DNA from: a virus | Lineage: Duplodnaviria > Caudoviricetes | Virus record (IMG/VR): IMGVR_UViG_3300033075_001021 | Length of the DNA: 64,000 nucleotides | Direction: 5' to 3' (one strand) | Shown: positions 2,454 through 2,594 of the stretch, piece by piece | How the letters are laid out: each line of letters opens with the position of its first letter | Numbering within the stretch: the first letter of the stretch is position 1 | Made by a program: the position numbers and the translations under genes | The notes under the pieces: generated by a model | What the model was told of the DNA's origin: nothing | Databases searched by the model: none | Seen by the model: the letters and a program-made list of their open reading frames with translations, nothing else

Positions 2454-2484
2454 AAAAAACCCCTCGATTTGTGGTCGAGGGGCT
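2454..2484 (-). terminator. attenuator terminator of tRNA operon 1
   Basis: CCCCTCGA-loop-TCGAGGGG then T run, just before the first tRNA. Confidence 0.85.
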
Positions 2485-2507
2485 CAAATTATGTTTTAAG
2501 ATAAACG

Positions 2508-2594
2508 TTAATTTTGGGCAATACTCGACCTCTGTGACCAATCGGCCTCAGCTGCATCAAAGTTAAACTCAAATATGTTGTTAACGTTTCTCAT
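2508..2594 (-). CDS. leader peptide 1 (MRNVNNIFEFNFDAAEADWSQRSSIAQN)
   Basis: ATG after A-rich leader; F/E/D/A codon run; GGTCGAG complementary to terminator 5' arm. Confidence 0.8.
   Translation of the reverse strand: MRNVNNIFEFNFDAAEADWSQRSSIAQN

What the first reader, a model, noticed from the sequence alone, without database searches (positions are those of the whole stretch)
2454..2594. Attenuator 1: FEFNFDAAEAD run upstream of the Asp/Phe/Glu/Ala cluster
Codons 8-18 are TTT GAG TTT AAC TTT GAT GCA GCT GAG GCC GAT (10 of 11 are F/E/D/A). Downstream canonical-loop tRNAs (2448 to 517) are Asp x4, Phe x2, Glu x3, Ala x2. GGTCGAG (2524-2530) starts ~10 nt after the run and pairs with CTCGACC (2473-2479) of the terminator, so a ribosome stalled in the run should leave it free and one that moves on should cover it.
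Basis: partly seen in the sequence, partly recalled or inferred. Interest (0 to 1): 0.85.

Follow-up and report, generated by a model that had tools for sequence, protein, structure and literature searches.

The report
Leader-peptide attenuator gating phage tRNA genes
A giant phage puts a 28-codon "test" gene, written mostly in Phe, Glu, Asp and Ala codons, and a switchable transcription stop directly in front of its Asp/Phe/Glu/Ala tRNA genes, so it probably makes these tRNAs only when ribosomes read those codons slowly; I found no published account of such control for tRNA genes.

Summary
On the minus strand there is a Bacteroidota-type promoter (2639-2669), a 28-codon ORF (2594-2508), a strong terminator (2485-2454) and, 6 nt later, the first of about 12 Asp/Phe/Glu/Ala tRNA genes. 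Codons 8-18 are 10 of 11 F/E/D/A. That has P about 5e-6, and no other small ORF in the window exceeds 7 of 11.

The window holds two paralogous units with the same 25-nt promoter core. One has a Leu/Val/Cys leader before Cys/Val/Leu tRNAs. The other has an Ile/Asn/Ser/Trp/Arg/His/Met leader before exactly those tRNAs. Relatives add a Lys/Tyr/Thr/Gln/Pro/Gly unit, so the four leader sets partition all 20 amino acids.

Ten distinct homologues of this leader all keep the codon run, the terminator and a segment 10 nt after the run that pairs with the terminator's 5' arm. That pairing shows compensatory changes. With a ribosome modelled on the run, the antiterminator hairpin forms in 10 of 10.

The mechanism is inferred, not shown. 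This scan has reported the same design on several other phage genomes. Eight literature searches found no description.

The parts
2639..2669 (-). Promoter of Bacteroidota type: TTTG, 19 nt, then TATATTTG. The overlapping 25-nt core at 2629-2653 is identical at 8145-8169 and 29529-29553, and differs by 1 nt at 39434-39458.
   Evidence: 4 copies found, 0 expected; the motif occurs 20 times against 4.7 expected, 16 of them on the coding strand, and none on the minus strand between 1 and 2638.
2610..2619 (-). Small 5'-UTR hairpin (GGG-GAAA-CCC), followed by an A-rich stretch without a Shine-Dalgarno sequence up to the ATG.
   Evidence: Folds. The same hairpin is present in several relatives.
2508..2594 (-). 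Leader ORF of 28 codons plus TAA.
   Evidence: In the homologue alignment, indels up to the end of the run are 3 or 6 nt long.
2541..2573 (-). Regulatory codon run, codons 8-18: Phe x3, Glu x2, Asp x2, Ala x3 and Asn x1.
2556..2563 (-). Region 1: part of the run that pairs with region 2 in the ribosome-free fold (anti-antiterminator). A second helix, 2593-2581 with 2511-2497, ties the ORF start to the stop region.
   Evidence: (helix list). Computed only. RNAalifold proposes an alternative region 1/region 2 register.
2524..2530 (-). Region 2: GGTCGAG, the 5' strand of the antiterminator closing helix.
2489..2519 (-). Inner helices of the antiterminator hairpin: 2519-2518 with 2483-2482, 2516-2513 with 2488-2485, 2511-2509 with 2491-2489, and 2506-2503 with 2496-2493. 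The stretch spans the stop codon.
   Evidence: This accounts for the nucleotide-level conservation of the ORF tail although its reading frame is not kept in L073.
2473..2479 (-). Region 3: CTCGACC, which is both the 3' strand of the antiterminator helix and part of the terminator's 5' arm.
2454..2485 (-). Intrinsic terminator: an 11-bp stem with a 7-nt loop, followed by six T at 2459-2454.
   Evidence: -17.7 kcal/mol.
2361..2448 (-). First regulated gene: tRNA-Asp(GUC), 88 nt, with a long variable arm. It starts 6 nt after the T run.
517..2262 (-). Rest of the tRNA block (Asp, Phe x2, Glu x3, Asp, Ala x3, Asp), plus a 119-codon ORF at 1556-1915.
7986..8185 (-). Paralogous unit: the same promoter, a 26-codon leader with a Leu/Val/Cys run, and a terminator, followed by Cys x2, Val x3 and Leu x7 tRNAs.
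   Evidence: GACTGGG/CCCAGTC, arm-shuffle p 0.006.
29335..29569 (-). Paralogous unit: the same promoter, a 32-codon leader with 17 consecutive codons from I/N/S/W/R/H/M, and a terminator. A 52-codon ORF follows, then Trp, Ser, His, Ile, Met, Asn and Arg tRNAs.

Best explanation
This is a multivalent leader-peptide transcription attenuator that gates a phage tRNA operon.

Proposed mechanism:
- Host RNA polymerase starts at the promoter (2639-2669), and a ribosome translates the 28-codon leader.
- If Phe-, Glu-, Asp- and Ala-tRNAs are plentiful, the ribosome runs through to the stop codon. It then sits on region 2 and on the inner strand of the antiterminator hairpin. The terminator (2485-2454) forms and transcription ends 6 nt before the first tRNA gene.
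- If any of these aminoacyl-tRNAs is scarce, the ribosome stalls in codons 8-18. That masks region 1 and leaves GGTCGAG (2530-2524) free to pair with CTCGACC (2479-2473) as it emerges. The terminator cannot form and the polymerase reads into the Asp/Phe/Glu/Ala tRNA genes.
- With no translation at all, region 1 pairs with region 2 and termination is the default.

The outcome is negative feedback on the supply of exactly the tRNAs the operon encodes. The unit is one of four sister units that together cover all 20 amino acids.

Shown here: the sequence anatomy, its conservation, the pairing potential and the codon-to-tRNA match. Inferred: translation of the leader, stalling, and regulated termination.
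For: 1. Anatomy. Promoter, ORF, terminator and tRNA follow each other, and there is no room for another promoter and no motif for one.

2. Codon match.
- 10 of 11 run codons are F/E/D/A, P 4.7e-6, and this is the best of 304 small ORFs in the window.
- Over 25 distinct leaders the leader-class by amino-acid-set matrix is strongly diagonal. FEDA leaders score 87 own-set codons against 7, 9 and 49. The 49 come from the shared N-terminal Arg/Asn/Ile codons.

3. Sister units.
- The same promoter core precedes leaders written in other sets, each before the matching tRNAs, both in this window and in IMG/VR relatives.
- The four sets hold 3, 6, 7 and 4 amino acids, which adds up to 20.

4. An unbiased scan of all loci for a small ORF, a terminator and a tRNA downstream returned only such leaders and their overlapping alternative frames.

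5. Ten distinct FEDA homologues. Behind nine of them, 54 of 57 named tRNAs are Asp, Phe, Glu or Ala.

6. The RNA switch.
- With a ribosome modelled on the last run codon and the RNA ended at the terminator loop, the minimum-energy fold closes with region 2 paired to the terminator's 5' arm in 10 of 10 homologues.
- Energies are -13 to -20 kcal/mol against -5 to -10 for shuffles. At most 2.5% of shuffles do as well.
- Shuffling the terminator arm gives p of 0.03 or less in 7 of 9. The Fisher combination over six lineages with distinct arms is 6e-6.

7. Compensatory changes.
- L019 has TCGA changed to TTAA in region 2 and in both terminator arms.
- L084 has GGTCGA changed to GGCTGA, with the arm changed to TCAGCC.
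- L033 and L049 show further A-U for G-C swaps and shifts of register.

8. Geometry.
- Region 2 starts 10 nt after the last run codon, just outside a footprint of about 12 nt 3' of the A site.
- The stop codon lies 0-20 nt after region 2, and the terminator 15-30 nt after the stop, in all classes.

9. Translation.
- Indels up to the end of the run are 3 or 6 nt.
- A 1-nt deletion after the run in L073 changes the peptide tail but leaves the nucleotides intact. The tail is therefore conserved as RNA and the run as codons.
Against: - There are no expression or termination data, and the host is unknown. Bacteroidota is inferred from the promoter motif only.
- The closing helix of the antiterminator is short, 7 bp. 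The full-length minimum-energy fold always prefers the terminator, so the switch must be kinetic, as in classical attenuators.
- In my footprint model a ribosome parked on the stop codon still leaves 5 of the 7 region-2 bases formally free.
- One run codon is Asn (AAC), kept in 7 of 10 homologues, and codons 2-7 are not cognate.
- A few tRNAs break the partition: Gln(UUG) at 2693-2765 just upstream of this promoter, Gln inside the block in L027 and L060, and Lys in L084.
- Six of the ten homologues were found with a 19-nt pattern taken from the run itself. In those six the run is not independent evidence; only its context is.
- Region 2 is fairly conserved, so much of the support is kept complementarity with a sliding register. 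Strict covariation is seen at only about four columns.
- The pair table comes from per-sequence constrained folds and so leans towards pairing.
Confidence: 0.8

Rival explanations
1. The switch is real, but it reports general translation capacity or amino-acid starvation (any slowing of ribosomes) rather than supply of this particular tRNA set. The phage would then raise all its tRNAs together when translation falters.
For: All units share one promoter core. Leaders of the FEDA and LVC classes share N-terminal Arg/Asn/Ile codons. A stall cannot tell a missing tRNA from an uncharged one.
Against: Each leader's run is confined to the amino acids of its own block, across 25 leaders. Substitutions between homologues stay inside the set even when the residues are chemically unlike, for example Ile and Arg in the third class. 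A general sensor would not need four disjoint codon sets.
Confidence: 0.1
2. The promoter, ORF and terminator form a self-contained small gene, for a peptide or a small RNA, with a constitutive terminator. The tRNAs would be expressed by leak-through or from unseen promoters, and the codon match would have no regulatory meaning.
For: The terminator is strong and thermodynamically favoured. The sister leader with the Leu/Val/Cys run resembles a membrane peptide.
Against: The four-way codon-to-tRNA match has per-leader chance probabilities of 1e-6 to 1e-9 and recurs in many phages. The peptide tail is not conserved in L073 although its RNA is. Complementarity to the terminator arm is maintained through compensatory changes. 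Only 6 nt separate the T run from the first tRNA.
Confidence: 0.03
3. The leader RNA is a translation-independent riboswitch, or a protein- or tRNA-binding antiterminator in the manner of a T-box.
For: The leader folds well (z-score -4.2), and its region 2 and tail are conserved as nucleotides.
Against: No Rfam family, T-box or otherwise, matches at E of 1 or less. Indels are in frame and the amino-acid set is conserved in the run. There is no element resembling a specifier loop or T-box sequence.
Confidence: 0.04
4. Stalling acts after transcription. It would govern processing or stability of the precursor, for example RNase access to the 5' end of the first tRNA, rather than termination.
For: The terminator hairpin abuts the RNase P site of the first tRNA, 6 nt away. 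The window also encodes a tmRNA and a CCA-adding enzyme.
Against: The hairpin carries a canonical U tract in all units. The alternative pairing targets exactly the terminator's 5' arm.
Confidence: 0.03

Closest known systems
Multivalent leader-peptide attenuators of enterobacterial amino-acid operons (ilvGMEDA leader for Leu/Val/Ile, thr leader for Thr/Ile; also trpL, hisL, pheL, leuL). Named from established knowledge.
   Same: A short translated leader with a run of regulatory codons for several amino acids. An intrinsic terminator, an overlapping antiterminator, and a region 1/region 2 pairing that makes termination the default. The read-out is ribosome speed on those codons.
   Different: The regulated genes are the tRNAs themselves, not biosynthetic enzymes, so the loop feeds back on decoding capacity. 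Four units divide all 20 amino acids between them. The element belongs to a phage and has a Bacteroidota-type promoter and no Shine-Dalgarno sequence. There is no sequence similarity to any Rfam leader family.
pheST (pheM) leader-peptide attenuator of E. coli phenylalanyl-tRNA synthetase. Named from established knowledge.
   Same: Leader-peptide attenuation applied to a gene of the translation apparatus, sensing Phe-tRNA.
   Different: It controls a synthetase protein operon, responds to a single amino acid and is cellular. Here the products are tRNAs and the sensing is multivalent.
T-box riboswitches
   Same: A terminator/antiterminator switch that reports on tRNA status and controls translation-related genes.
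   Different: A T-box binds uncharged tRNA directly and needs no translation. No T-box or specifier features are present here, and the evidence points to a translated leader.
Codon-matched leaders before phage tRNA clusters, reported earlier by this scan on other genomes (unpublished AI notes)
   Same: The same design. One note describes four units that partition the 20 amino acids in another giant Bacteroidota phage.
   Different: Those are other genomes. I did not check them, and they are not independent published evidence.

Membership tests
Leader-peptide transcription attenuator | A short translatable ORF in the 5' leader of the transcript | tested here: met
   A 28-codon ATG ORF begins about 38 nt after the predicted transcription start. 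Indels up to the end of the run are in frame across homologues. Translation itself was not observed.
Leader-peptide transcription attenuator | A run of codons for the amino acid or acids that the operon serves | tested here: met
   10 of 11 codons are F/E/D/A, before Asp/Phe/Glu/Ala tRNAs, P 4.7e-6. The class matrix is diagonal.
Leader-peptide transcription attenuator | An intrinsic terminator between the leader and the regulated genes | tested here: met
   An 11-bp stem followed by six T, at -17.7 kcal/mol, ending 6 nt before the first tRNA.
Leader-peptide transcription attenuator | An antiterminator that excludes the terminator and is left free by a ribosome stalled in the run | tested here: met
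   2530-2524 pairs with 2479-2473. It forms in constrained folds for stalls at codons 8-18 and in 10 of 10 homologues, with compensatory changes. All of this is in silico.
Leader-peptide transcription attenuator | An anti-antiterminator (region 1 pairing with region 2) that makes termination the default without translation | tested here: inconclusive
   Ribosome-free minimum-energy folds pair the run region with region 2 in all homologues. Two registers are possible, and I made no formal covariation count.
Leader-peptide transcription attenuator | The regulated genes encode amino-acid biosynthesis, transport or aminoacyl-tRNA synthetase proteins | tested here: not met
   The regulated genes are tRNA genes. 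This is the point of novelty.
Leader-peptide transcription attenuator | Read-through responds to aminoacyl-tRNA supply | not testable with these tools
   This needs transcription-translation assays or 3'-end mapping in infected cells.
T-box riboswitch | Stem I with a specifier loop, and the conserved T-box sequence in the antiterminator | tested here: not met
   cmscan of 1-9000 against Rfam 15 at E of 1 or less gave no T-box hit and no leader-family hit in 2454-2670.

The most novel reading that the evidence does not exclude
A lineage of giant (roughly 350 kb) Bacteroidota phages runs its complete tRNA complement as four demand-controlled regulons. Each tRNA block is gated by a multivalent leader peptide that measures how fast ribosomes decode the very codons that block serves. 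The phage would then top up a tRNA set only when the host's supply fails, for example through a mismatch in codon usage, or through host tRNA decay or cleavage during infection.
Probability: 0.75. Interest if true: 0.9.

Novelty: new variant of a known kind. Interest (0 to 1): 0.85.

Why it matters
Control of tRNA genes is known mainly at promoters, through growth-rate and stringent control. How phages regulate their large tRNA sets, and why they carry them, are open questions. A leader-peptide attenuator in front of tRNA genes would be a direct feedback from decoding speed to tRNA synthesis, and a new use of a textbook mechanism. Sorting the tRNAs into four sensed sets gives a testable rule for the gene order of phage tRNA arrays. 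The units are short, modular and swappable, so the idea can be tested directly in coupled transcription-translation with defined tRNA pools. They could also serve as sensors of tRNA supply.

Tried and rejected
- No whole genome is held for the window, so the fourth unit of this genome, noted 5.9 kb before the window start, could not be read. I saw that class only in relatives.
- blastn of 2300-3300 against 50,697 GenBank phage records gave no match.
- A degenerate back-translation of the run found only L011. An 18-nt pattern from the ORF tail found only L002 and L011.
- The metagenome scan with a 19-nt run pattern gave 55 loci. Most were chance matches in GC-rich DNA and were discarded on context.
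- RNAalifold on the MAFFT alignment did not recover the terminator or antiterminator, because the variable arms are out of register. I used per-sequence constrained folds instead.
- The test of own against swapped terminator arms by duplex energy is only weakly discriminating, with means of -12.2 against -8.7 kcal/mol, because many arms share the motif.
- My automatic cut of L084 failed and was redone by hand.
- I asked whether the leaderless fifth promoter copy (39434-39458) serves an initiator tRNA that elongation cannot sense. By reading, the tRNA-Met at 39072-39144 has a paired 1-72 position and lacks the three G-C pairs in the anticodon stem. I dropped the idea.
- The one genome-collection hit is a 170-kb contig binned as a Methanobacterium MAG. 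It has 34% GC and phage-like content, so it is probably misbinned and I did not use it as host evidence.
- Eight literature searches found no description of leader-peptide control of tRNA genes.

Full report
**Context.** All long ORFs in the window lie on the minus strand and GC is about 35%. ARAGORN finds 44 tRNA genes and a tmRNA. One tRNA has the amber-suppressor-type anticodon CUA. Pfam hits include a CCA-adding or poly(A) polymerase-type enzyme, a DNA ligase and a TonB-dependent receptor. The Bacteroidota promoter motif, TTTG then 17-21 nt then TAnnTTTG, occurs 20 times against 4.7 expected, 16 of them on the coding strand. Relatives in IMG/VR include a 160-kb contig that CheckV rates 45% complete. 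The window is therefore part of a giant phage of roughly 350 kb, probably of a Bacteroidota host. The host is an inference from the promoter motif only.

**Observation.**
- On the minus strand the ORF starts at 2594 and stops at 2510-2508, which is 28 codons.
- Codons 8-18 read FEFNFDAAEAD.
- GGTCGAG (2530-2524) is the exact complement of CTCGACC (2479-2473), inside the 5' arm of an 11-bp terminator hairpin that is followed by six T.
- The first tRNA gene starts 6 nt after the T run.
- The block down to 517 holds Asp x4, Phe x2, Glu x3 and Ala x3 when ARAGORN, Rfam and my reading of three weak hits are combined.
- The run is far from chance. F/E/D/A make up 23.6% of the phage's protein residues and P(at least 10 of 11) is 4.7e-6. 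Of 304 small ORFs in the window, none but this one exceeds 7 of 11.

**Sister units.** The 25 nt around the -7 element of the promoter are repeated exactly at 8145-8169 and 29529-29553, and with one mismatch at 39434-39458.
- The copy at 8145-8169 is followed by a 26-codon leader whose codons 8-17 are all Leu, Val or Cys. A terminator follows, then Cys x2, Val x3 and Leu x7 tRNAs.
- The copy at 29529-29553 is followed by a 32-codon leader with 17 consecutive codons from Ile/Asn/Ser/Trp/Arg/His/Met. A terminator follows, then tRNAs for exactly those seven amino acids.
- IMG/VR contigs that carry the same promoter core show the same three classes plus a fourth, a Lys/Tyr/Thr/Gln/Pro/Gly leader before Pro/Gln/Tyr/Gly/Thr/Lys tRNAs. 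I could not read that DNA.
- The four sets hold 3, 6, 7 and 4 amino acids and together cover all 20.
- Over 25 distinct leaders, the matrix of leader class against amino-acid set is strongly diagonal.
- A scan of all fetched loci for any small ORF followed by a terminator and then a tRNA returned only these leaders and their overlapping alternative frames.

**Homologues of this unit.** I collected ten distinct versions: the window, L011/L076, L073, L002, L019 (also in L026 and L027), L033, L049, L060, L063 and L084.
- L002, L019 and L084 were found by synteny, BLAST or the promoter core. L011 too was first found through the promoter core. The other five came from a 19-nt pattern inside the run, so in those five only the context is independent evidence.
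- All ten keep the run.
- Nine keep a stop 13-20 nt after region 2. In L019 the stop follows region 2 directly.
- All keep a gap of 15-30 nt, a terminator, and then tRNA-Asp or tRNA-Phe within 34 nt.
- Behind nine of them, 54 of 57 named tRNAs are Asp, Phe, Glu or Ala.

**The RNA switch in the window.**
- The terminator (2485-2475 with 2467-2457) has -17.7 kcal/mol.
- The competing hairpin closes with 2530-2524 paired to 2479-2473 and has four inner helices spanning the stop codon. It has -15.7 kcal/mol.
- Without a ribosome, the minimum-energy fold pairs run codons 11-13 (2563-2556) with region 2, pairs the ORF start (2593-2581) with the stop region (2511-2497), and keeps the terminator.
- I modelled a ribosome with its A site on codons 8, 10, 13, 16 or 18 and ended the RNA at the terminator loop. 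The antiterminator hairpin is the minimum-energy fold every time.
- Region 2 starts 10 nt after the last run codon, just beyond a footprint of about 12 nt 3' of the A site.

**The RNA switch in the homologues.**
- The same constrained fold gives the antiterminator in all ten homologues, at -13 to -20 kcal/mol. At most 2.5% of shuffles do as well.
- Shuffling only the terminator arm gives p of 0.03 or less in 7 of 9. The Fisher combination over six lineages with different arms is 6e-6.
- The arms differ widely, yet each carries the complement of its own region 2. TCGA becomes TTAA in region 2 and in both arms in L019. GGTCGA becomes GGCTGA, with TCAGCC in the arm, in L084. L033, L049 and L060 show A-U for G-C swaps and small shifts of register.

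**Evidence for translation.** Indels up to the end of the run are 3 or 6 nt long. In L073 a 1-nt deletion after the run changes the peptide tail and moves the stop by two codons, while the nucleotides stay the same. The run is thus conserved as codons and the tail as RNA. That is what an attenuator predicts and what a functional peptide does not.

**Mechanism.** The most likely reading is classical attenuation applied to tRNA genes.
- Fast decoding of Phe, Glu, Asp and Ala codons takes the ribosome over region 2 and onto the stop. The terminator forms and no tRNA is made.
- A stall in the run frees region 2, the antiterminator forms, and the polymerase reads into the tRNA block.
- No translation gives the region 1/region 2 pairing and termination.
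- No Bacteroidota-type promoter motif lies on this strand between 2638 and 1, so the block appears to depend on read-through.
- The sequence features and their conservation are shown. Translation, stalling and regulated termination are inferred.

**Caveats.**
- The closing helix is only 7 bp, and the switch must be kinetic.
- My footprint model leaves 5 of the 7 region-2 bases free at the stop codon.
- The run contains one Asn codon, and codons 2-7 are Arg/Asn/Val/Ile, shared with the Leu/Val/Cys class.
- tRNA-Gln at 2693-2765 sits outside its set, after a GOLLD-like RNA. Gln or Lys tRNAs intrude in three relatives.
- Much of the pairing support is kept complementarity rather than strict covariation.
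- The pair table comes from constrained folds and so leans towards pairing.

**Comparison with what is known.** The element works like the multivalent ilv and thr leaders and the pheST leader of E. coli (my knowledge of those systems). It meets every testable structural criterion of a leader-peptide attenuator except the kind of gene that is regulated. It matches no Rfam leader or T-box family. Eight full-text searches found no paper on leader-peptide control of tRNA genes, in phages or in cells. This scan has already reported the same design on at least eight other phage genomes. One of those reports describes a four-unit partition of the 20 amino acids. They are unpublished AI notes that I did not re-test, and I give them no weight as evidence.

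**Verdict.** It is a new variant of a known mechanism with an unexpected target. My confidence in the attenuator model is about 0.8 and I score interest at 0.85.

Noticed in passing
window 2772-3186 (ORF-free stretch up to about 3735), minus strand: Full-length match to Rfam GOLLD RNA (74 bits, E 4e-18, below the gathering score of 150). It lies downstream of a promoter motif at 3748-3779 and is followed by tRNA-Gln(UUG) at 2693-2765. That tRNA sits outside its amino-acid set.
   Followed up: partly
window 2361-2448, 1386-1473, 1295-1378, 7231-7316, 7894-7981, 27158-27245, 27806-27889, 28042-28132, 38981-39066: tRNAs of 84-91 nt with a long variable arm, like class II tRNAs, but with Asp, Glu, Val, Cys, Asn, Ile, His or Met anticodons. 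Each lies beside a canonical tRNA with the same anticodon. Two score best as tRNA-Sec in Rfam. Relatives have them too, often as the first gene after the terminator.
   Followed up: partly
window 39160-39458, minus strand; also L014 and L017: A fifth copy of the promoter core is followed by a structured leader of about 290 nt with no codon-matched ORF and no typical terminator. Two tRNA-Met(CAU) genes come next. By reading, the first does not look like an initiator.
   Followed up: partly
window 29169-29327, minus strand: A 52-codon ORF lies between the terminator of the third unit and tRNA-Trp. Its start is conserved in relatives (L008, L010, L012, L014, L017, L018). Only this leader class has a protein gene as the first regulated gene.
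   Followed up: no
window 40902-41256 and 36967-37039: A phage-encoded tmRNA (tag VGSGELAVA) and a tRNA with anticodon CUA (amber-suppressor type). All leader ORFs seen end in TAA.
   Followed up: no
window 517-653 and 680-865: A tRNA-Asp-like gene interrupted by insertions (Rfam tRNA 28.1 bits over 137 nt), next to a tRNA-Ala embedded in a larger structured RNA. Other first-stage notes describe both.
   Followed up: no
window 34048-36015 and 30784-31992: A TonB-dependent receptor (Plug plus beta-barrel) encoded in a phage, and a CCA-adding or poly(A) polymerase-family enzyme close to the tRNA blocks.
   Followed up: no
L084 (PLXT01000115.1, 170,662 nt): A contig binned as a Methanobacterium MAG carries the same promoter core, a FEDA leader and Asp/Phe/Glu tRNAs at 34% GC. 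It is probably a misbinned giant-phage contig.
   Followed up: partly
L011 1100-1360: In this relative a tRNA-Met(CAU) lies between the promoter core and the FEDA leader. That tRNA would therefore be made whether or not the attenuator opens.
   Followed up: no
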